Positions 1,143-36,568 of a stretch of 42,002 nucleotides of DNA are shown here, in pieces. Positions within the stretch are counted from its first letter, which is position 1, and each line of letters opens with the position of its first letter. Position numbers and translations under genes: made by a program. The notes beneath the pieces were generated by a model that was not told the DNA's origin, did not search any database, and saw nothing but the letters and a program-made list of their open reading frames with translations. This stretch comes from a virus. Taxonomy: Duplodnaviria; Heunggongvirae; Uroviricota; Caudoviricetes. The stretch lies in IMG/VR virus record IMGVR_UViG_2563366918_000005; one strand, 5' to 3'.

Positions 1143-1850
1143 CAAATGCGCCTATAAGGCTCTCTTACCAGCCGCGCCCTAACAGGCGCACACGATCTGA
1201 CATTTGCATCCAACTTCGTTACTTACGGCCCGTAAACGGGCTGCCCGGATAGGGAATCGATAACTGCTCTCCCATTTTATCCTCTTCAAGCTGGTGCTTT
1301 ATGTAATCCTGTATCTTCGCCGTGTTCTTACCCACTGTATCGACGTAGTACCCTCTGCACCAGAACTCCCTGTTCCTGTATTTGAATTTCAAATCACCAA
1401 ACTGCTCGTAAAGCATCAGACTGCTTTTCCCTTTCAGATATCCCATAAACCCGGATACGCTCATTTTAGGCGGGATCTCCACAAGCATATGGATATGATC
1501 TGCACAGCATTCAGCTTCCAGAATCCGTACGCTTTTCCACTCACACAGCTTTCTCAAAATACTGCCTATTGCTCTACGCTTCTCTCTGTAGAACACCTGT
1601 CTTCGGTATTTTGGCGCAAAAACTATGTGATATTTACAGTTCCATCGGGTGTGCGCTAAGCTCTTTTCGTTCCCCATTGGGACCCCCTTTTGATTTCTTG
1701 TTTGACACTTGCAGTTGCCAGACCGCAAGGTGTTTTAACAAATCAAAAGGGGTTTTAATAACTGGCTCAAAGCTGAAAGCTTTCCGGAACCCCCAGCCTA
1801 GCTGGGGGTTTTCTGTGCACAAAAAACCCTCTGTAGTAACAGAGGGTTTT
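1143..1850 (-). mobile_element. IS200 insertion sequence (about 708 bp)
   Basis: Contains IS200-type tnpA. Boundaries inferred from IS200 geometry (about 172 nt left end before tnpA start, about 77 nt after stop); left-end hairpins seen at 1823-1850 (AAAACCCTCTGT-AGTA-ACAGAGGGTTTT) and 1788-1810. Confidence 0.65.
1219..1677 (-). CDS. tnpA: IS200/IS605-family transposase TnpA (HUH Y1 type)
   Basis: 152-aa product MGNEKSLAHTRWNCKYHIVFAPKYRR…HIHMLVEIPPK… matches IS200 TnpA; start at the internal Met of track ORF 1219..1728. Confidence 0.85.
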   Translation of the reverse strand: MGNEKSLAHTRWNCKYHIVFAPKYRRQVFYREKRRAIGSILRKLCEWKSVRILEAECCADHIHMLVEIPPKMSVSGFMGYLKGKSSLMLYEQFGDLKFKYRNREFWCRGYYVDTVGKNTAKIQDYIKHQLEEDKMGEQLSIPYPGSPFTGRK

Positions 1851-6682: not shown

Positions 6683-6699
6683 ATTACCTTTATGGTAAT
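6683..6699. promoter_or_regulatory. Operator palindrome ATTACCTTTATGGTAAT
   Basis: Perfect 6-5-6 inverted repeat in the divergent tailspike / ant-like intergenic region. Confidence 0.5.
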
Positions 6700-6735: not shown

Positions 6736-6755
6736 TACTGTATAAATATACAGTT
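6736..6755. promoter_or_regulatory. LexA (SOS) box TACTGTATAAATATACAGTT
   Basis: Perfect CTGT-N8-ACAG with AT-rich spacer; about 20 bp upstream of RBS GGAG (6763-6766) and ATG 6775. Confidence 0.7.
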
Positions 6756-6774: not shown

Positions 6775-7032
6775 ATGCAGCGGTATCACTATCCACTGGA
6801 AGACGGATTTACCGAAAGGATTCACACGCCGGGAGGCGTCAGGTCACTGGTGGAGGGATCGCACTTGATGAAATTACTCCGGGATCTCGATAAGGATGGA
6901 TTTAATGTCGATGGCCCACTTGCCGAACTGACTGCACTGATTAACTACGTCACCAGCTCACAGATGTCTATGCGGGATCTGCAAACACATCTCGACTATT
7001 GTGCCGAACAATTACGAAAACAAACCAGATAA
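6775..7032 (+). CDS. Small antirepressor-like protein (standalone homolog of Ant C-terminal domain); SOS-controlled candidate
   Basis: 85 aa from ATG 6775; aligns by eye with the C-terminus of the 7347..8039 product (HTPGGVRSLVEGSHLMKLL…LRDLQTH versus HSPSGVLGLTENSLLMNLL…LRDIQTH); preceded by the LexA box. Confidence 0.6.
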   Translation: MQRYHYPLEDGFTERIHTPGGVRSLVEGSHLMKLLRDLDKDGFNVDGPLAELTALINYVTSSQMSMRDLQTHLDYCAEQLRKQTR

Positions 7033-7062: not shown

Positions 7063-7079
7063 TTTACCTTTGAGGTAAA
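7063..7079. promoter_or_regulatory. Operator palindrome TTTACCTTTGAGGTAAA
   Basis: Perfect inverted repeat of the same family, between the two ant-like genes. Confidence 0.45.
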
Positions 7080-7171
7080 TTTACATCGCACTCCTCTTGT
7101 GCCATAGTAATCGGGCACTGGCAAAATCCAGTGCCGGGATTGGTCTCCCGGATTACTACAGAGGCACATAT

Positions 7172-7192
7172 GCCGCATAAGCGGTTTTTTTT
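7172..7192 (+). terminator. Putative rho-independent terminator
   Basis: CCGC-ATAA-GCGG stem followed by a T8 run; a further hairpin lies at about 7112-7144. Confidence 0.4.
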
Positions 7193-7346
7193 ATGTGTAA
7201 AGCGCACCTATTCTATGGTGGGCTGTGTGGGGGCACCGAAAGGTGCGCCGGGTTCCTTTGTAGCCGGTAAGACCAACTCTGCACAGTTCACCACCATCTG
7301 ATTGGTCTCAGCGGTGGTGATTAACCTAACTACAAAGGTGATCGCC

Positions 7347-8039
7347 ATGAATACCAAACCTTCCATCTTTTCCTTTGAGTCATCCTGCCAGATCCGTATG
7401 TTCATGATTGACGGAGAACCTTGGTTTGTCACCAAAGATGTGTGCAATGCTTTGAATATTGATGTTACACAAGCGAGAAAACTTGATAAAAAAGGCTGGA
7501 ACAAAAAGGGGCTGTATTCAATACAGACCCCTGGTGGAATACAAGAACTATCCATCGTTTCAGAATCAGGTCTCTACATCCTTATTCTGCGTTGCAAAGA
7601 GGCAATGACTGAGGGAACGAGAGCATTCAGATTTCTTGAATGGGTTACAGGCGAGGTTCTTCCTCAGATCCGCCGCACCGGAAGTTACATTAAAAACTCG
7701 CTACCGCAGGAAGAACGCATAAAGATGGTTGCCGACCAGGTAGCCAACGCCACGGCGTCAGCAGTAATGCAGGCGATGAAGATAGAGAACAAAACCTACA
7801 ACGCCCCGCTGAAGCCCGGCTACCGCAGCCTGATTCATTCCCCGTCTGGTGTTCTCGGCCTGACGGAGAACTCACTGCTGATGAATCTGCTGAACCAGTT
7901 ACAGGAAGACGGGCACGACGTATCGGGCGCGGCGGCGGAGCTGACCACCATGTTCTGCTACATCGTCGGTGTGAGCAAATGCCTGCGTGATATCCAGACG
8001 CACGCGGAGTACATCAACGACAAAGCAGGGTTCTTCTGA
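7347..8039 (+). CDS. Antirepressor (N-terminal BRO-N domain, C-terminal Ant/KilAC domain)
   Basis: RBS GGTGA 5 nt before ATG 7347; N-terminus FSFESSCQIRMFMIDGEPWFVTKDVCNALNI matches the BRO-N pattern; C-terminal domain paralogous to 6775..7032. Confidence 0.7.
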   Translation: MNTKPSIFSFESSCQIRMFMIDGEPWFVTKDVCNALNIDVTQARKLDKKGWNKKGLYSIQTPGGIQELSIVSESGLYILILRCKEAMTEGTRAFRFLEWVTGEVLPQIRRTGSYIKNSLPQEERIKMVADQVANATASAVMQAMKIENKTYNAPLKPGYRSLIHSPSGVLGLTENSLLMNLLNQLQEDGHDVSGAAAELTTMFCYIVGVSKCLRDIQTHAEYINDKAGFF

Positions 8040-8103: not shown

Positions 8104-8120
8104 ATTACCTCACGGGTGAT
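8104..8120. promoter_or_regulatory. Operator-like imperfect palindrome ATTACCTCACGGGTGAT
   Basis: Left half perfect, right half GGTGAT; lies upstream of the mini-ORF and the 8249 gene. Confidence 0.3.
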
Positions 8121-27055: not shown

Positions 27056-27249
27056 CCAACGCCATTCATGGCCATATCAATGATTTTCTGGTGCGTACCG
27101 GGTTGAGAAGCGGTGTAAGTGAACTGCAGTTGCCATGTTTTACGGCAGTGAGAGCAGAGATAGCGCTGATGTCCGGCGGTGCTTTTGCCGTTACGCACCA
27201 CCCCGTCAGTAGCTGAACAGGAGGGACAGCTGATAGAAACAGAAGCCAC
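26974..27249 (-). CDS. insA: IS1 InsA
   Basis: 91 aa, [42 protein letters not shown]… matches IS1 InsA. Confidence 0.85.
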
Positions 27250-27304
27250 TGGAGCACCTCAAAAACACCATCATACACTAAATCAGTAAGTTGGCAGCAT
27301 CACC

Positions 27305-29340: not shown

Positions 29341-29933
29341 TGATTACCATCCTGACGTTCTTTGAGTCGCTTCCTGGCTGCTGCTATGCGATCAGCAATT
29401 GTCACATTCACATTAACATCCAGACGTTCTTTGAACGCGTTGACATCAACATGCTTACCAATCAGCTCAAGGTTCTTCACCTTGTCAGGCCATTTAATTT
29501 TTTTGAGGATTGTCTCTATCGAATCCTCGTTCATGTTCATGATGGTCGATGACAAATCAAAGCCACTAAGCGTAGTGCGCCAGATTTTCGGCCACTCACG
29601 GATTGGTTTAAGGCTCCCATCGTCGTTGAGGATGTCGATCACGTCCATCTGGTCGATCTGCACCAGGCGCATGAGAACGTAATCAGCACTGACGCGCATT
29701 CGTTTGTTGCGCTCCTCCATCAACTCGGCAATCCGTTTTTGAATGCGTTCATCGCGCATCATGACACTGGCTTTAACTGCCGCTGTATTTGGGGAGAATC
29801 CTGCGTTAATCGCTGCCTGAGTCTGGTTTTCAGGCGTTTTGATGTATGACTGGCAATAAGCCTCCTGCATTGCTGTTAGTGGCTTAAATTGCGTTGATTT
29901 GCGTTTATAGGTTTTAGGTTCAGCAGGCATCAT
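29337..29933 (-). CDS. Terminase small subunit
   Basis: Start placed at the MMPAEPK Mets (29933/29930, RBS GGTGG); the longer track ORF (to 30011) would read through an upstream terminator and repeat region; about 198 aa. Confidence 0.6.
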   Translation of the reverse strand: MMPAEPKTYKRKSTQFKPLTAMQEAYCQSYIKTPENQTQAAINAGFSPNTAAVKASVMMRDERIQKRIAELMEERNKRMRVSADYVLMRLVQIDQMDVIDILNDDGSLKPIREWPKIWRTTLSGFDLSSTIMNMNEDSIETILKKIKWPDKVKNLELIGKHVDVNAFKERLDVNVNVTIADRIAAARKRLKERQDGNQ

Positions 29934-29940
29934 AACCACC

Positions 29941-29969
29941 GTGGTAATAGTTACCGTTGTGGTAATAGT
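29941..29969 (-). promoter_or_regulatory. Two direct repeats GTGGTAATAGT just upstream of terS (late control region candidate)
   Basis: Copies at 29941-29951 and 29959-29969, between terminator and terS start. Confidence 0.3.
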
Positions 29970-29976
29970 ACCATGC

Positions 29977-30002
29977 AAAATAAAGCCGCCATAGTTGGCG
30001 GC
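29977..30002 (-). terminator. Terminator between nin-like operon and late (terminase) operon
   Basis: GCCGCCA-ACTA-TGGCGGC hairpin followed by TTTATTTT on the minus strand. Confidence 0.5.
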
Positions 30003-30051
30003 AGTATTCAAAACCCATCAAATTCATCATGCATAATCTACTCGTGACATG

Positions 30052-33061: not shown

Positions 33062-33406
33062 TCAGAACTCTTCGATGTTCCAGCCACCACCTGCTTTCTT
33101 TGGTTTAACCGTTACCCCGATGATTCGGAACGGATACTGATCTGCGGCGACTTTGGTTTTCACCCTGGCGTCGTCGGTCCAGAAACCTTTCACTTCGTGC
33201 AGTTCCATCTCGCCGGTGGCGAGCATCACAGCAAAATCGGGCGTATAGAACGTGTTGTCAGCTAACCGCAGCTTGATACCCTCAAATCGATACCAGACGA
33301 TTTCTCCTGCACGTTTACGCAGCTCAAGGTGCTGGCAATACGCAGATTCTGTTTTGTTCATCTGTCCTGTTTTGAGTCGACCAAGAGCCTGTATCTGTTT
33401 TCTCAT
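33062..33406 (-). CDS. Putative PD-(D/E)xK-type nuclease
   Basis: 114 aa; motif …YTPDFAVM…EMELHEVKG fits a D…ExK signature; operator pair immediately upstream. Confidence 0.4.
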   Translation of the reverse strand: MRKQIQALGRLKTGQMNKTESAYCQHLELRKRAGEIVWYRFEGIKLRLADNTFYTPDFAVMLATGEMELHEVKGFWTDDARVKTKVAADQYPFRIIGVTVKPKKAGGGWNIEEF

Positions 33407-33408
33407 GA

Positions 33409-33425
33409 TTTACCCCTGAGGTAAT
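33409..33425. promoter_or_regulatory. Operator palindrome TTTACCCCTGAGGTAAT
   Basis: Abuts the ATG (33406) of the nuclease-like gene. Confidence 0.45.
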
Positions 33426-33470
33426 TAAAAACCACATAAGACACGAAATCAATAGATTTTAGAATATTTT

Positions 33471-33487
33471 ATTACCTAACAGGTAAT
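33471..33487. promoter_or_regulatory. Operator palindrome ATTACCTAACAGGTAAT
   Basis: Perfect 6-5-6 palindrome 62 bp from the previous site. Confidence 0.5.
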
Positions 33488-35112: not shown

Positions 35113-35376
35113 TCAGCTTGAATGTTGTGGGGAGGAATTAATCATGATCTGCTTAATCTCTGCCCTGATACGACGGTTTGATTCCATGGTGCACTCAACA
35201 CAGTGTCCGTTGTAAACCCAGCGTTCACTGTCATGTCCGTGCTTACATGTTTTTCCGGTGTAGTAGCGTTTAAGTCCGCGCTTTGCGGCATCAATACGTG
35301 TAATGATTTCCATGGTAAGCCCTGTTATTAGTATTGGGATTACGGTCATTTTGTGCTGACACAAAAAAAATATCAA
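35113..35376 (-). CDS. Small Cys/His zinc-ribbon-like protein (hypothetical)
   Basis: …YYTGKTCKHGHDSERWVYNGHCVEC…; start uncertain (35376 or internal Met at 35313). Confidence 0.4.
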   Translation of the reverse strand: MIFFLCQHKMTVIPILITGLTMEIITRIDAAKRGLKRYYTGKTCKHGHDSERWVYNGHCVECTMESNRRIRAEIKQIMINSSPQHSS

Positions 35377-35392: not shown

Positions 35393-35409
35393 ATTACCTT
35401 TGAGGTACG
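35393..35409. promoter_or_regulatory. Operator-like site ATTACCTTTGAGGTACG
   Basis: Left half perfect, right half GGTACG. Confidence 0.35.
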
Positions 35410-35463
35410 AATAGATATGAAAAGACCGCCGGGTGGCGGTCTACAGAGGGTTGTGGCTGGATA

Positions 35464-35694
35464 TCATGAGTAGAAGAAGTATGCCAGTTCTGCTTTTGAG
35501 CGCAGCCATTGTCTTGTTTTACAGGCTTTAAAAAGCCCATTCATCAATACTTTACCTGGCATTTTGCGCTTACCTGTTAAGTGAGTCTGGATATAGTGAC
35601 TCGTCGTTCCGGCTTCCTGTGCGAAGGCTTCACGCTCATCCGGAGTAAGTGCAAGCCAGTGCTTTTTGAAATCGAAATGTCCGTTATCGCTCAT
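35464..35694 (-). CDS. Cro-like small DNA-binding regulator (first gene of leftward early operon)
   Basis: 76 aa; divergent from repressor gene across the three-operator region. Confidence 0.5.
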   Translation of the reverse strand: MSDNGHFDFKKHWLALTPDEREAFAQEAGTTSHYIQTHLTGKRKMPGKVLMNGLFKACKTRQWLRSKAELAYFFYS

Positions 35695-35729
35695 AGCTAT
35701 TGCCTGATATTTATTTCAGATAATAAATA

Positions 35730-35746
35730 TTCACCCATAAGGTAAC
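35730..35746. promoter_or_regulatory. Operator (weak) TTCACCCATAAGGTAAC
   Basis: One mismatch in left half. Confidence 0.3.
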
Positions 35747-35760
35747 AAAAATCAAGGATA

Positions 35761-35777
35761 GTTACCTATGAGGTGCA
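35761..35777. promoter_or_regulatory. Operator GTTACCTATGAGGTGCA
   Basis: Left half matches family; right half degenerate. Confidence 0.35.
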
Positions 35778-35794
35778 TTTACCTGTTGGGTAAT
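35778..35794. promoter_or_regulatory. Operator palindrome TTTACCTGTTGGGTAAT
   Basis: Near-perfect; with the two adjacent sites forms an OR-like triple operator between cro-like and repressor genes. Confidence 0.5.
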
Positions 35795-35848
35795 ATTGCT
35801 TTAAATTGAATCATCTACTGATTCATATATGAGGCGATTTTCCAGAAA

Positions 35849-36433
35849 ATGAAAAGTATCCAGGACGTCCGCAGGCAAAATCTCAACGACTTGATCGACC
35901 GTGAATTCAATGGTGTTCAGACGCGGATGGCAGAAAAACTTGGAACTCAGGCAAATCTGGTAAACCGCTGGGCTCTTGGCAAGAAGGTTATCGGCGACCA
36001 GGTTGCACGAAAAATTGAAGCTGCCGCCAATAAACCCCGTAACTGGCTTGATATTGATCGCTCGCTTTCTCAGGAGGGTTTTCAGCCTGTCGGCCCGAGC
36101 GATATAGGTCAGCTGGCGGCTCACAACCTGGAACGCTGGATGAGCGAAAGCCGCGACCTTTCAACGCAGGGAAAACTACACCGCGCATCCGGCGTCGCCC
36201 AGGTGACAATCAGCCGCCTGTTAAACAATGAGGTCAGCGTTTCCATTTCCACCCTGGAGAATGTTGCATCCGCATTCGGGCGTCACGGCTATGAATTACT
36301 GATTCACCCGCACGACCCTGCGACCATCAACTATGATCGCTCGCGCTACGCATTGTTACCCGAAACCGAGAAAGCAAAGATCGAAAGTTACATTGAATTT
36401 GTCATCAACCAGAACGAAAAAAACAAACAATAA
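35849..36433 (+). CDS. Immunity repressor candidate with two HTH domains, no peptidase domain
   Basis: 194 aa; HTH-like segments (…QTRMAEKLGTQANLVNRWALGKK… and …LHRASGVAQVTISRLLNNE…); no Ala-Gly / Ser-Lys autocleavage module seen; sits between operator clusters. Confidence 0.6.
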   Translation: MKSIQDVRRQNLNDLIDREFNGVQTRMAEKLGTQANLVNRWALGKKVIGDQVARKIEAAANKPRNWLDIDRSLSQEGFQPVGPSDIGQLAAHNLERWMSESRDLSTQGKLHRASGVAQVTISRLLNNEVSVSISTLENVASAFGRHGYELLIHPHDPATINYDRSRYALLPETEKAKIESYIEFVINQNEKNKQ

Positions 36434-36453: not shown

Positions 36454-36478
36454 AAGCCGCCAGAAGGCGGCTTTTTTA
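36454..36478 (+). terminator. Rho-independent terminator after repressor gene
   Basis: AAGCCGCC-AGAA-GGCGGCTT followed by TTTTATT. Confidence 0.7.
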
Positions 36479-36489
36479 TTGCCTATTCG

Positions 36490-36506
36490 ATTACCTAATG
36501 GGTAAT
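36490..36506. promoter_or_regulatory. Operator palindrome ATTACCTAATGGGTAAT
   Basis: Perfect 6-5-6 palindrome upstream of -35 TTGACA. Confidence 0.5.
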
Positions 36507-36524
36507 TTTTTTAACTCATATCTA

Positions 36525-36552
36525 TTGACATCAAACCAGATACGCATAATTA
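36525..36552 (+). promoter_or_regulatory. PL-like early promoter (TTGACA-16-TAATTA)
   Basis: -35 TTGACA 36525-36530, -10 TAATTA 36547-36552, bracketed by operators. Confidence 0.5.
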
Positions 36553-36568
36553 TTACCTCAACGGTAAC
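36552..36568. promoter_or_regulatory. Operator ATTACCTCAACGGTAAC
   Basis: Overlaps the -10 / +1 of the PL-like promoter. Confidence 0.45.

What the first reader, a model, noticed from the sequence alone, without database searches (positions are those of the whole stretch)
35730..35794. Triple-operator switch region between divergent cro-like and repressor genes
Three adjacent 17-bp sites (one strong, two weaker) fill the 154-bp gap between the divergent genes, mirroring lambda OR1-3 logic with an unrelated operator sequence and a double-HTH repressor. The repressor ATG has no nearby SD (GAGG is 14 nt upstream), which may mean a leaderless maintenance transcript.
Basis: partly seen in the sequence, partly recalled or inferred. 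Interest (0 to 1): 0.5.

Follow-up and report, generated by a model that had tools for sequence, protein, structure and literature searches.

The report
Known phage repressor operators, phiV10-like prophage
The three palindromic sites are real repressor-binding sites in the immunity switch of a phiV10/epsilon15-like E. coli prophage, but the system is already described: a non-cleavable tetrameric repressor, switched off by a LexA-controlled antirepressor, with about 15 such sites across the phage genome.

Summary
Three 17-bp sites of the form (A/T)TTACC-N5-GGTAA(A/T) lie at 35730-35746, 35761-35777 and 35778-35794, in the 154-bp gap between a cro-like gene and the repressor gene. They have 1, 2 and 0 half-site mismatches. 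The same three-site layout is conserved in four phage lineages. In a population sample the half-sites are almost invariant while the N5 spacers vary.

The lambda analogy is only partly right. The window is a phiV10-like (Uetakevirus) prophage. Its repressor is a full-length homologue of the crystallised SPC32H Rep, and only its N-terminal HTH is the DNA-binding domain. It has no RecA-cleavable domain. A homologue of the SPC32H antirepressor Ant sits at 6775-7032 behind a perfect LexA box. The motif occurs 9 times perfectly (0.02 expected), about 15 times in all, at nearly every transcription unit. The epsilon15 GenBank record already annotates such sites as repressor-binding.

The perfect site is next to rep, not cro, which is the reverse of lambda. 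The displaced Shine-Dalgarno sequence is real and conserved. Leaderless transcription is untested and, in this lineage, weakly disfavoured. Overall this is an ordinary, already-known system. Its fine operator geometry (17, 30/31 and 62 bp spacings) is not annotated in any source I could read.

The parts
35730..35746 (.). O1, a Rep operator (TTCACCCATAAGGTAAC) with 1 half-site mismatch. It lies within the core of the predicted cro-like promoter.
   Evidence: Conserved in place in 6 phages, always with one TCACC-type half or worse. The only polymorphism is in the N5 spacer, at 35736.
35761..35777 (.). O2, a Rep operator (GTTACCTATGAGGTGCA) with 2 mismatches here. It is perfect in the Klebsiella and Salmonella lineages.
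   Evidence: The polymorphisms at 35767/68/69/71 are all in the spacer and the half-sites are invariant.
35778..35794 (.). O3, a Rep operator (TTTACCTGTTGGGTAAT), a perfect match that abuts O2. The centre-to-centre distance of 17 bp is the same in all lineages.
   Evidence: No polymorphism in 80 copies.
35720..35755 (-). Predicted promoter of the cro-like gene. One reading is TTGTTA(35748-35743)-17-TATTAT(35725-35720). The alternative -35 is TTGATT (35755-35750), the reverse complement of the invariant AAAAATCAA block.
   Evidence: Consensus scans only. Searches (window; Tyrion; TTGATT-16-AATAAT in SPC32H and Klebsiella phage). AAAAATCAA is invariant in the alignment.
35464..35694 (-). Cro-like gene, the homologue of epsilon15 gp39. 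It encodes a 76-aa all-helical HTH protein.
   Evidence: PHROG 35 'transcriptional repressor', E 5.6e-13. AlphaFold model with pLDDT 81.6 and five helices. The best fold matches are YdaS, 434-repressor DNA-binding domain and C-proteins at TM 0.56-0.62, but with E>1. It is 58-84% identical across lineages, with an invariant AGTTSHYIQ-HLT motif.
35849..36433 (+). rep, the prophage repressor (194 aa). It has an N-terminal DNA-binding HTH, a middle HTH_3-like dimerisation domain and a C-terminal tetramerisation/Ant-binding domain.
   Evidence: PDB 5D50_A (SPC32H Rep), E 4e-42 over residues 1-190. Pfam. Identical to the phiV10 and ZX5 repressor, which blocked lytic transcription when overexpressed (PMC9782041). 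The recognition-helix motif NLVNRW is invariant.
35795..35816 (+). Conserved, non-polymorphic AT-rich block (ATTGCTTTAAATTGAATCATCT). This is the best candidate region for the rep promoter, for example TTTACC(35778)-18-TAAATT(35802-35807), which would give a leader of about 35 nt.
   Evidence: Inference only. TT-AATT-A is invariant across lineages. There are no polymorphisms at 35772-35816 against 7 at 35817-35841. The candidate was found in 4 of 6 lineages with relaxed criteria, and none reaches 9/12.
36454..36480 (+). Intrinsic terminator after rep.
   Evidence: Annotated in phiV10.
36490..36568 (+). PL-like early promoter module. It contains a distal operator at 36490-36506, TTGACA(36525)-17-AATTAT(36553), and a proximal operator at 36552-36568 covering the -10 end and +1. 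The operators are 62 bp apart.
   Evidence: The same promoter and the 62/63-bp operator pair occur in SPC32H, the Klebsiella phage, Tyrion and epsilon15. These sites are annotated as repressor-binding in epsilon15.
35393..35442 (-). Terminator after the cro-like gene (35442-35423) followed by a 1-mismatch operator (35393-35409), upstream of the gp40-like and replication genes.
   Evidence: Equivalent sites occur in Tyrion and the Klebsiella phage.
33409..33487 (-). A second promoter module with two perfect operators 62 bp apart (33471-33487 and 33409-33425), paralogous to the PL-like module. It lies upstream of the DUF1064 gene.
   Evidence: The same 62-bp pair occurs in epsilon15 (35907/35969), SPC32H and the Klebsiella phage.
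29932..29966 (-). Two abutting operators (centres 18 bp apart) directly before the likely true terS start (ATG 29930) and after a terminator.
   Evidence: the terminator is in the scan. epsilon15 has the same pair at 12 and 30, before terS at 47.
25636..25652 (.). Perfect operator upstream of the gp3/portal structural operon.
   Evidence: The epsilon15 equivalent at 2931-2947 is annotated as repressor-binding.
6683..6699 (.). Perfect operator in the divergent tailspike/ant control region.
   Evidence: The epsilon15 equivalent at 19895-19911 is annotated as repressor-binding.
6736..6755 (+). LexA box (TACTGTATAAATATACAGTT) immediately upstream of ant.
   Evidence: A perfect CTGT-N8-ACAG, and the only intergenic perfect match.
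6775..7032 (+). ant, a small antirepressor (85 aa).
   Evidence: PDB 5D50_E (SPC32H Ant), E 3.5e-46. phrog_450.
7063..7079 (.). Perfect operator downstream of ant, ahead of the isrK/C4-like RNAs and the BRO-N/Ant-fusion gene.
8104..8120 (.). Intergenic operator-like site with 1 mismatch, upstream of the DUF4760 gene.
26253..26269 (.). Intergenic operator-like site with 1 mismatch, overlapping a TATAAT before the IS1-disrupted moron gene.

Best explanation
The region is the central immunity switch of a phiV10-like (Uetakevirus, epsilon15/SPC32H-type) prophage.

The three palindromes are operators for the phage repressor Rep. Rep reads TTACC-N5-GGTAA with its N-terminal HTH and, by homology, acts as a tetramer carrying two DNA-binding dimers.

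O1 lies inside the core promoter of the cro-like gene. Bound Rep there shuts off the early operon that runs leftward in the window (cro-like, gp40, replication genes).

O2 and O3 form an invariant abutting pair, 17 bp centre to centre, just upstream of or overlapping the weak rep promoter. They most likely (a) anchor a tetramer that helps fill the imperfect O1, which is 30/31 bp (about 3 helical turns) from O2, and (b) autoregulate rep.

The same repressor holds down nearly every other transcription unit through about 12 further operators. Several of these form pairs exactly 62 bp (about 6 turns) apart, which suits one tetramer bridging two sites.

The switch is thrown not by RecA cleavage but by the small antirepressor Ant. 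The ant gene is kept silent by host LexA, and Ant takes Rep tetramers apart.

The cro-like protein probably then keeps rep off.

Shown here: the sites, their conservation and selection, the homologies, the LexA box, and the genome-wide distribution.

Inferred: which protein binds which site, the promoter positions, cooperativity or looping, and autoregulation.
For: - The window is 98% identical to phiV10 and 100% identical to E. coli prophages.
- Rep matches SPC32H Rep (PDB 5D50_A) at E 4e-42 over its full length. The Rep protein is identical to ZX5 ORF21, whose overexpression cut lytic transcripts by more than 99.9%.
- Ant matches 5D50_E at E 3.5e-46 and has a perfect LexA box 22 bp upstream. 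No S24 domain is present.
- The motif gives 9 perfect hits against 0.02 expected. All are intergenic once the terS start is corrected.
- The epsilon15 GenBank record annotates the same 17-mers as 'repressor' binding sites.
- The three-site layout, with 17 and 30/31 bp spacings, is conserved in four lineages whose Reps are only 42-78% identical but share the NLVNRW helix.
- Half-sites are under selection and spacers are free.
- The predicted cro promoter overlaps O1 in every lineage.
- The 62-bp operator pairs are conserved.
- The literature reports that Rep binds palindromic sites as a tetramer, with DNA-binding-domain pairs formed across dimers, and that Ant breaks the tetramer (PMC9638917). 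It also describes the domain order DBD-MDD-TetDloop (PMC9986798).
- Ant overexpression lowered rep mRNA by 75% in ZX5. This is consistent with Rep-dependent rep expression or with repression of rep by the cro-like protein.
Against: - No binding data for these particular sites could be read. The primary SPC32H and epsilon15 papers are not held.
- The rep promoter cannot be located from sequence. No candidate reaches 9/12 in any lineage.
- A 17-bp centre spacing puts O2 and O3 on nearly opposite DNA faces, and a 62-bp loop is very tight. Which pairs share a tetramer is therefore speculative. The conserved spacings could simply reflect promoter geometry, with one site at +1 and one near -62.
- Consensus match is only a proxy for affinity.
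- It is unknown whether the cro-like protein binds these sites at all. Its HTH differs from Rep's, and the profile comparison is not significant (E 0.06).
Confidence: 0.8

Rival explanations
1. This is a true lambda-type OR1-3 bistable switch. Rep and the cro-like protein compete for the same three sites with opposite affinity orders. Rep at the middle site activates its own promoter and at high concentration represses it.
For: - Three operators lie between divergent repressor and cro-like genes, with one in the lytic promoter.
- No strong rep-strand promoter is found, as expected for an activator-dependent PRM-like promoter.
- Inactivating Rep with Ant lowered rep mRNA by 75% in ZX5.
- The cro-like HTH is even more conserved than Rep, as expected if it reads the same conserved DNA.
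Against: - The perfect site is rep-proximal, and the site in the lytic promoter is imperfect in all lineages.
- The spacings (17 bp abutting, 30/31 bp) differ from lambda's.
- Rep is a tetramer without a cleavable domain.
- The sites belong to a dispersed regulon of about 15 sites.
- There is no evidence that the cro-like protein binds them.
Confidence: 0.3
2. The rep maintenance transcript is leaderless, or nearly so, starting at or within a few nt of the ATG at 35849, like lambda cI from PRM.
For: - No SD at working distance exists in any of six lineages.
- A -10-like hexamer with A2 and T6 lies 4-7 nt before the ATG in several lineages. These are GATTTT in the window, TATTTT in Tyrion, TACAAT in SPC32H and epsilon15, and AAAAAT in the Klebsiella phage (read from the alignment; TACAAT is listed).
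- The coding start is A-rich (ATGAAAAGT).
Against: - Matching -35 elements are very poor, and nothing passes the scan.
- In BUCT554 the hexamer lacks T6.
- In the window lineage the hexamer positions 35840 and 35841 are polymorphic, and the whole 35817-35841 stretch is the variable part of the gap. By contrast, 35795-35816 is invariant and holds an alternative -10 (TAAATT) that would give a leader of about 35 nt.
- The cro-like and gp40-like genes also have weak SDs, so a poor SD is not special to rep.
Confidence: 0.18
3. The palindromes are bound by a regulator other than Rep, such as the cro-like protein alone, the AlpA-like or PerC-like regulator, or a host factor. Rep would then act elsewhere.
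For:
- The prophage encodes several other HTH proteins.
Against: - The epsilon15 annotation assigns the sites to the repressor.
- The sites bracket rep and sit on the early promoters that a prophage repressor must silence.
- Rep's recognition helix is invariant across lineages that share the invariant half-site.
- A 17-bp palindrome suits the dimeric DNA-binding-domain pairs described for SPC32H Rep.
Confidence: 0.06
4. The three sites are chance palindromes in AT-rich intergenic DNA.
For: O2 has two mismatches, and such matches occur about 12 times per 42 kb by chance.
Against: - Three sites within 154 bp, against about 0.04 expected.
- 9 perfect copies, against 0.02 expected.
- Positional conservation in four lineages.
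- Half-site versus spacer polymorphism, p = 7e-5.
Confidence: 0.01

Closest known systems
Salmonella phage SPC32H Rep/Ant lytic switch (Kim & Ryu 2013, J Virol; Kim et al. 2016, PNAS; PDB 5D50, 5D4Z)
   Same: - Rep is a full-length homologue (E 4e-42).
- Ant is a close homologue (E 3.5e-46).
- A LexA box precedes ant.
- The gene order is the same: cro-like, then rep, then a PL-like promoter.
- The operator consensus and the three-site layout are the same, at L084 1885/1915/1932.
   Different: - Rep is only about 42% identical overall, and the C-terminal and linker regions diverge.
- O2 is degenerate (GGTGC) in the E. coli/Enterobacter lineage but perfect in SPC32H.
- O1-O2 spacing is 31 bp here against 30 bp.
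- The window phage carries an extra BRO-N/Ant-fusion gene behind isrK/C4-like RNAs.
Salmonella phage epsilon15 repressor (gp38) and its annotated 17-bp 'repressor' binding sites (GenBank AY150271.2; Kropinski et al. 2007)
   Same: The consensus ATTACC-N5-GGTAAT is identical. Sites occur at the same places: terS, gp3, tailspike/ant, the PL region, and downstream of the replication genes.
   Different: The epsilon15 record does not annotate the three sites in the rep/gp39 gap, only an IHF site there, although they are present at 33341, 33358 and 33388. epsilon15 has three PL-region sites and the window has two.
Lambda OR1-OR2-OR3 with CI and Cro
   Same: - Three tandem 17-bp palindromic operators lie between divergent repressor and cro-type genes.
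- One operator is in the lytic promoter.
- The repressor promoter is weak.
- The repressor gene lacks a usable SD.
   Different: - Operator and repressor are unrelated in sequence.
- Rep has no S24 autocleavage domain.
- Rep is a tetramer inactivated by an antirepressor.
- The best site is repressor-proximal.
- Two sites abut at 17 bp.
- The operators are dispersed over the whole genome, not just OL and OR.
Dispersed-operator repressors: P1 C1 and mycobacteriophage L5 gp71 'stoperators' (from general knowledge)
   Same: One repressor has many sites spread over the genome, including at late or structural operons.
   Different: Those sites are asymmetric. These are symmetric palindromes placed at promoters, often in phased pairs.
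pLS20 Rco / p53-type TetDloop tetramerisation and DNA looping (PMC9986798)
   Same: SPC32H Rep shares the architecture of an N-terminal DNA-binding domain plus a C-terminal TetDloop. The conserved 62-bp and 30/31-bp in-phase operator pairs found here would suit looping by a tetramer.
   Different: Looping by Rep has not been shown. The loops would be far shorter than in pLS20.

Membership tests
Uetakevirus (epsilon15/SPC32H-type) Rep-Ant immunity system | Repressor homologous over its full length to SPC32H Rep (DNA-binding domain, dimerisation domain, Ant-binding/tetramerisation domain) | tested here: met
   phmmer against PDB gives 5D50_A at E 4e-42 over residues 1-190. The alignment has invariant NLVNRW and conserved C-terminal motifs.
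Uetakevirus (epsilon15/SPC32H-type) Rep-Ant immunity system | Small antirepressor Ant encoded next to the tailspike gene | tested here: met
   Window 6775-7032 matches 5D50_E at E 3.5e-46. Its position is next to the tailspike gene.
Uetakevirus (epsilon15/SPC32H-type) Rep-Ant immunity system | ant under a LexA box (SOS control) | tested here: met
   A perfect CTGTATAAATATACAG lies at 6738-6753, 22 bp before the ant ATG. Binding by LexA was not tested.
Uetakevirus (epsilon15/SPC32H-type) Rep-Ant immunity system | Repressor lacks a RecA-stimulated autocleavage (S24/LexA-like) domain | tested here: met
   Pfam, NCBIfam and PHROG scans show only HTH families.
Uetakevirus (epsilon15/SPC32H-type) Rep-Ant immunity system | ATTACC-N5-GGTAAT operators at the early promoters and several late operons | tested here: met
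   There are 9 perfect and about 6 near-perfect intergenic sites, at positions matching the annotated epsilon15 sites.
Uetakevirus (epsilon15/SPC32H-type) Rep-Ant immunity system | Rep binds DNA as a tetramer and is disassembled by tetrameric Ant | not testable with these tools
   Known for SPC32H only, as summarised in PMC9638917. It is inferred here by homology.
Lambda-type tripartite OR switch (CI/Cro) | Three tandem operators between divergent repressor and cro genes | tested here: met
Lambda-type tripartite OR switch (CI/Cro) | Operators overlap both the lytic promoter and the repressor-maintenance promoter | tested here: inconclusive
   The lytic (cro) promoter prediction overlaps O1 in all lineages. 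No rep-strand promoter could be located.
Lambda-type tripartite OR switch (CI/Cro) | Highest-affinity repressor site lies on the lytic promoter (OR1>OR2>OR3) | tested here: not met
   By consensus match only. O3, next to rep, is perfect in all six phages. O1, on the cro promoter, has 1-2 mismatches in all six. Affinities were not measured.
Lambda-type tripartite OR switch (CI/Cro) | Repressor is a CI-type dimer with a RecA-cleavable C-terminal domain | tested here: not met
   No S24 domain. It is a homologue of the tetrameric SPC32H Rep.
Lambda-type tripartite OR switch (CI/Cro) | Cro binds the same operators with reversed preference | not testable with these tools
   The cro-like protein is an HTH protein, but its targets are unknown.
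Lambda-type tripartite OR switch (CI/Cro) | Leaderless repressor mRNA from the maintenance promoter | tested here: inconclusive
   The SD is displaced (14 nt) or absent in all lineages. Weak -10-like hexamers lie 4-7 nt before the ATG, but that stretch is polymorphic and no -35 is present.

The most novel reading that the evidence does not exclude
The conserved geometry may encode a switch logic different from lambda's. The geometry is an abutting 17-bp pair next to rep, an imperfect site 3 helical turns away on the lytic promoter, and 62-bp (6-turn) pairs at the other early promoters. In this reading, a p53-like tetramer anchors on the perfect rep-proximal site(s). It represses the lytic promoter only through bridging or looping to deliberately weakened sites. 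Removal of tetramerisation by Ant would then collapse repression at all roughly 15 sites at once. The whole genus, across E. coli, Enterobacter, Klebsiella and Salmonella phages, would share a single operator specificity. Finally, rep would be translated from an SD-less, possibly leaderless, mRNA.
Probability: 0.2. Interest if true: 0.45.

Novelty: already known. Interest (0 to 1): 0.2.

Why it matters
It matters little for discovery. The repressor, the antirepressor, SOS control through LexA and the operator consensus are all documented for this phage genus, and this exact repressor protein has been tested in phage ZX5.

Two things add modest value:

1. The phiV10-type records carry no operator annotation, and the epsilon15 record misses the three sites in the rep/cro gap. 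The map given here (about 15 sites, with conserved 17, 30/31 and 62-bp spacings) could guide annotation and experiments on how a tetrameric repressor with trans-paired DNA-binding domains engages DNA. [quoted passage not shown]

2. About 10% of complete E. coli genomes carry this immunity region (562 of 5426). Knowing its control sites is therefore useful for prophage-induction studies and for engineering phiV10-based reporter phages.

Tried and rejected
- **Primary papers.** Reading the epsilon15 genome paper (PMC2698709) and the SPC32H papers in J Virol (PMC3807360) and PNAS (PMC4983836) failed, because they are not held. Whether O1-O3 were footprinted there could not be checked, and only secondary summaries were used.
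- **Related loci.** The search for related loci with Rep in viral contigs returned 80 loci that all encode the identical protein. This was useless for deep comparison but useful for polymorphism analysis. Diverse relatives came instead from tblastn against phage records.
- **Structure prediction.** The single-sequence model was adequate (pLDDT 81.6), but the fold matches are statistically weak, all with E>1.
- **Rep versus cro-like HTH.** The profile-profile comparison was not significant, E 0.06.
- **Search for a rep promoter.** The standard scan found none in four lineages. A relaxed scan gave several mutually exclusive candidates: TAAATT at 35802; AAAAAT at 35747; and GAAAAT overlapping the ATG, which is rejected because its start point would fall inside the gene.
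- **TATATG/CATATA at 35824-35831 as a -10.** Rejected, because 35826 and 35830 are polymorphic.
- **Alternative in-frame start for rep.** Rejected. The ATG at 35829 is out of frame, and the MKSI N-terminus matches the crystallised protein.
- **Perfect site at 29951 as a coding-region exception.** Rejected. The annotated TTG start at 30011 spans a terminator and both operators, so the likely start is ATG 29930, as in epsilon15.
- **'Other intergenic' polymorphism count.** The count is inflated by a replaced segment at 35314-35363, so only the half-site versus spacer contrast is used.
Full report
**1. What is there**

The gap between the minus-strand ORF 35464-35694 (76 aa) and the plus-strand ORF 35849-36433 (194 aa) is 154 bp. 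Within it, at exactly the coordinates given, lie three 17-bp sites built on the palindrome TTACC-N5-GGTAA:
- O1, 35730-35746, TTCACCCATAAGGTAAC, one half-site mismatch.
- O2, 35761-35777, GTTACCTATGAGGTGCA, two mismatches.
- O3, 35778-35794, TTTACCTGTTGGGTAAT, perfect.

O2 and O3 abut, with centres 17 bp apart. O1 is 31 bp from O2. The sites cover 65 of the 154 bp, so they do not 'fill' the gap. Otherwise the description is accurate, including GAGG at 35831-35834, 14 nt before the ATG.

**2. Is it more than chance?**

Yes.
- Matches with up to two mismatches occur 11.6 times per 42 kb in shuffles, so about 0.04 are expected in the gap.
- Perfect matches occur 9 times in the window, against 0.02 expected.
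- An alignment of the homologous gap from six phages keeps all three sites in register, with O2-O3 at 17 bp in all and O1-O2 at 30 or 31 bp. The six phages are this window, Enterobacter phages Tyrion and BUCT554, Klebsiella phage BUCT711, and Salmonella phages SPC32H and epsilon15.
- Eighty IMG/VR contigs encode the identical repressor. In them, every polymorphism inside O1 and O2 falls in the central N5 spacer (35736, 35767, 35768, 35769, 35771), and none falls in the 30 half-site positions of the gap.
- Over six operators in 64 colinear copies, 4 of 60 half-site positions vary against 13 of 30 spacer positions (Fisher p = 7e-5).

This is the signature of a dimeric HTH operator.

**3. What the element is**

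The window is a prophage 98% identical to Escherichia phage phiV10 (genus Uetakevirus) and 100% identical to prophages in several E. coli chromosomes. About 10% of complete E. coli genomes carry this immunity region.

*The repressor.* The 194-aa protein is a full-length homologue of the crystallised repressor Rep of Salmonella phage SPC32H (PDB 5D50_A, E 4e-42). It is identical to the repressor of phiV10 and of phage ZX5. Overexpressing the ZX5 protein abolished free phage and cut holin and endolysin transcripts by more than 99.9% (PMC9782041).

*The 'second HTH'.* In SPC32H Rep the N-terminal domain binds DNA, a middle domain dimerises, and a C-terminal p53-like domain tetramerises and binds the antirepressor (PMC9986798). 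The significant Pfam HTH_3 match at residues 106-147 is therefore the dimerisation domain. It is not a second DNA reader.

*Mode of binding.* Rep binds palindromic DNA as a tetramer whose DNA-binding pairs form across dimers, and tetrameric Ant breaks the tetramer (PMC9638917).

*The antirepressor.* The window encodes the matching Ant (6775-7032; 5D50_E, E 3.5e-46). A perfect LexA box, CTGTATAAATATACAG at 6738-6753, lies 22 bp upstream. Rep has no S24 autocleavage domain.

Induction is thus by SOS, through LexA and then Ant, and not by RecA-stimulated repressor cleavage.

**4. The three sites are part of a genome-wide set**

All 9 perfect sites are intergenic. One, at 29951, appears to be coding only because the automatic terS start (TTG 30011) runs over a terminator and two operators. 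The likely start is ATG 29930, as in epsilon15. Four of the six 1-mismatch sites are also intergenic, and a fifth (29933) becomes so with that terS correction.

The sites lie at the following places:

| Position(s) | Location |
|---|---|
| 6684 | tailspike/ant control region |
| 7064 | upstream of a second antirepressor gene |
| 8105 | upstream of a DUF4760 gene |
| 25637 | upstream of the gp3/portal operon |
| 26254 | upstream of a moron |
| 29933, 29951 (18 bp apart) | upstream of terS |
| 33410, 33472 (62 bp apart) | between the replication and nin-like genes |
| 35394 | after the cro-like gene |
| 35731, 35762, 35779 | the three sites in question |
| 36491, 36553 (62 bp apart) | at a PL-like promoter downstream of rep |

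The epsilon15 GenBank record already annotates the equivalent 17-mers as 'repressor' binding sites. It omits the three in its own rep/gp39 gap, which are nevertheless present at 33341, 33358 and 33388. The 62/63-bp pairs recur in epsilon15, SPC32H, Tyrion, BUCT554 and the Klebsiella phage.

**5. Promoters**

*Lytic side.* A sigma-70-type promoter for the cro-like gene is predicted in every lineage, and it overlaps O1. It reads TTGTTA-17-TATTAT in the window and Tyrion, and TTGATT-16-AATAAT in SPC32H and the Klebsiella phage. The TTGATT is the reverse complement of the block AAAAATCAA between O1 and O2, which is invariant in all six phages.

*PL-like promoter.* This promoter, TTGACA-17-AATTAT at 36525-36553, has one operator across its -10 end and start point, and another 62 bp upstream. 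The module at 33409-33487 is a paralogous copy of this design.

*rep side.* No promoter reaching 9 of 12 consensus positions is found on the rep strand in any lineage. A relaxed search gives competing weak candidates.

The distribution of variation favours one of them. Positions 35772-35816 are invariant among the 80 copies, whereas seven positions in 35817-35841 vary. The invariant stretch covers O3 and the block ATTGCTTTAAATTGAATCATCT, whose core TT-AATT-A is invariant across lineages. This favours a promoter using the O3 region as -35 and TAAATT (35802-35807) as -10, which would give a leader of about 35 nt. That is inference, not proof.

**6. The Shine-Dalgarno / leaderless idea**

Most genes in the prophage have a GGAG-type SD 4-7 nt from the start. 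rep has GAGG at 14 nt. That GAGG is not conserved in the other lineages, none of which has an SD at working distance. The absence is therefore real and conserved.

The cro-like and gp40-like genes also have poor SDs, so the feature is not unique to rep.

A -10-like hexamer with A at position 2 and T at position 6 lies 4-7 nt before the ATG in five of six phages. These hexamers are GATTTT, TATTTT, AAAAAT and TACAAT (the last in two phages). This keeps a leaderless or near-leaderless transcript possible.

Against that, the -35 regions are very poor, BUCT554 lacks the T, and in this lineage hexamer positions 35840 and 35841 are polymorphic. I put leaderless transcription at about 0.18.

**7. Most likely mechanism**

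*Shown:*
- the operators, their conservation and the selection on them;
- the homology of Rep and Ant;
- the LexA box;
- the dispersed regulon.

*Inferred:*
- Rep at O1 blocks the cro-like promoter.
- The invariant abutting pair O2-O3, of which O3 is perfect in all lineages, anchors a tetramer next to the weak rep promoter and autoregulates it.
- The imperfect O1 is filled cooperatively. It lies 30/31 bp from O2, about three turns and therefore on the same face.
- The 62-bp (six-turn) pairs at the other early promoters are bridged by one tetramer.
- DNA damage removes LexA from the ant promoter, Ant dismantles Rep tetramers, and all operons are released together.
- The cro-like protein then keeps rep down.

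In ZX5, overexpressing its annotated anti-repressor (ORF4, a BRO-N-type protein rather than the small Ant) lowered rep mRNA by 75%. This fits either positive autoregulation by Rep or repression of rep by the cro-like protein.

The cro-like protein is an all-helical HTH protein. The evidence is PHROG 35 at E 5.6e-13; a model with pLDDT 81.6; and best fold matches to YdaS, the 434 repressor DNA-binding domain and C-proteins at TM about 0.6, all with E>1. It is more conserved across the genus (58-84% identity) than Rep (42-78%).

**8. Comparison with lambda**

The layout resembles lambda: three 17-bp operators between divergent genes, one in the lytic promoter, a weak maintenance promoter, and no usable SD. 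Several defining features fail:
- The best site is repressor-proximal rather than on the lytic promoter (consensus proxy).
- The repressor is not a cleavable CI-type protein.
- The operators are dispersed over the genome rather than confined to OL and OR.

It works partly like lambda OR. It is a member of the epsilon15/SPC32H Rep-Ant family, and every sequence-testable defining feature of that family is met.

**9. Novelty and verdict**

The system is already known. What I could not find in any source available to me is an explicit description of two things: the three operators in the rep/cro gap, and the conserved 17, 30/31 and 62-bp spacings. [quoted passage not shown]

This is a modest annotation-level addition and not a discovery. 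Interest is 0.2.

Noticed in passing
window 7063-8039: A second antirepressor module. A perfect Rep operator (7063-7079) is followed by Rfam matches to isrK (7115-7191, 74.7 bits) and to the P1-type C4 antisense RNA (7211-7298, 78.6 bits). Next comes a 230-aa gene (7347-8039) that fuses a BRO-N domain to a C-terminal domain of the same family (phrog_450) as the small SPC32H-type Ant. The prophage thus seems to carry both a LexA-controlled Ant and a P1 immI-like, RNA-controlled Ant fusion.
   Followed up: partly
window 36490-36568 and 33409-33487; also L002, L084, L085, L086, L088: Operator pairs exactly 62 bp apart (63 in one Klebsiella case) flank paralogous promoter modules of the form operator - about 19 nt - cTATTGA(C/T) - 17 nt - operator over the start point. 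They are conserved across all lineages examined. The distance of six helical turns suggests bridging by one Rep tetramer.
   Followed up: partly
window 35849-36433 vs L002, L084, L085, L086, L087: Phages of E. coli, Enterobacter, Klebsiella and Salmonella have Reps only 42-78% identical. All keep the same recognition-helix motif (NLVNRW) and the same operator half-site. The genus therefore appears to have a single operator specificity, unlike lambdoid phages. The cro-like protein and Ant are each more conserved than Rep.
   Followed up: partly
window 26537-27304: A 768-bp IS1 element, with InsA and IS1 transposase domains, is inserted in a moron gene that starts at 26273. It is flanked by a 9-bp duplication, CTGCTGCCT. 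It is absent from the otherwise near-identical prophage of E. coli WP8-S17-ESBL-12.
   Followed up: yes
window 29930-30011: The RefSeq-style terS start (TTG 30011) runs across an intrinsic terminator (30002-29985) and two Rep operators. ATG 29930, directly after the operators as in epsilon15, is the more likely start.
   Followed up: partly
window 26253-26271: A 1-mismatch operator-like site (ATTACCTTAAAGGTATA) overlaps a consensus TATAAT that ends 1 nt before the annotated ATG (26273) of the moron gene. Either the start codon or the promoter call is off, or this gene also has an unusual 5' end.
   Followed up: no
window 1219-1810: An IS200 transposase gene (1219-1677) and an adjacent STnc490 Hfq-binding sRNA match (1687-1810, 146 bits) sit between the host genes yfgH/yfgI and the prophage lysis genes, at the prophage/host junction.
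   Followed up: no
window 25974-26050: A tRNA-Arg gene lies inside the prophage between the gp3 and terL regions. A strong terminator follows at 26094-26129.
   Followed up: no
window 35747-35755: The 9-mer AAAAATCAA between O1 and O2 is invariant in all six phages. It reads as a -35 (TTGATT) on the cro strand. It also resembles an A-tract plus WATCAA IHF core, and it could be a -10 (AAAAAT) on the rep strand. Its role is unresolved.
   Followed up: partly
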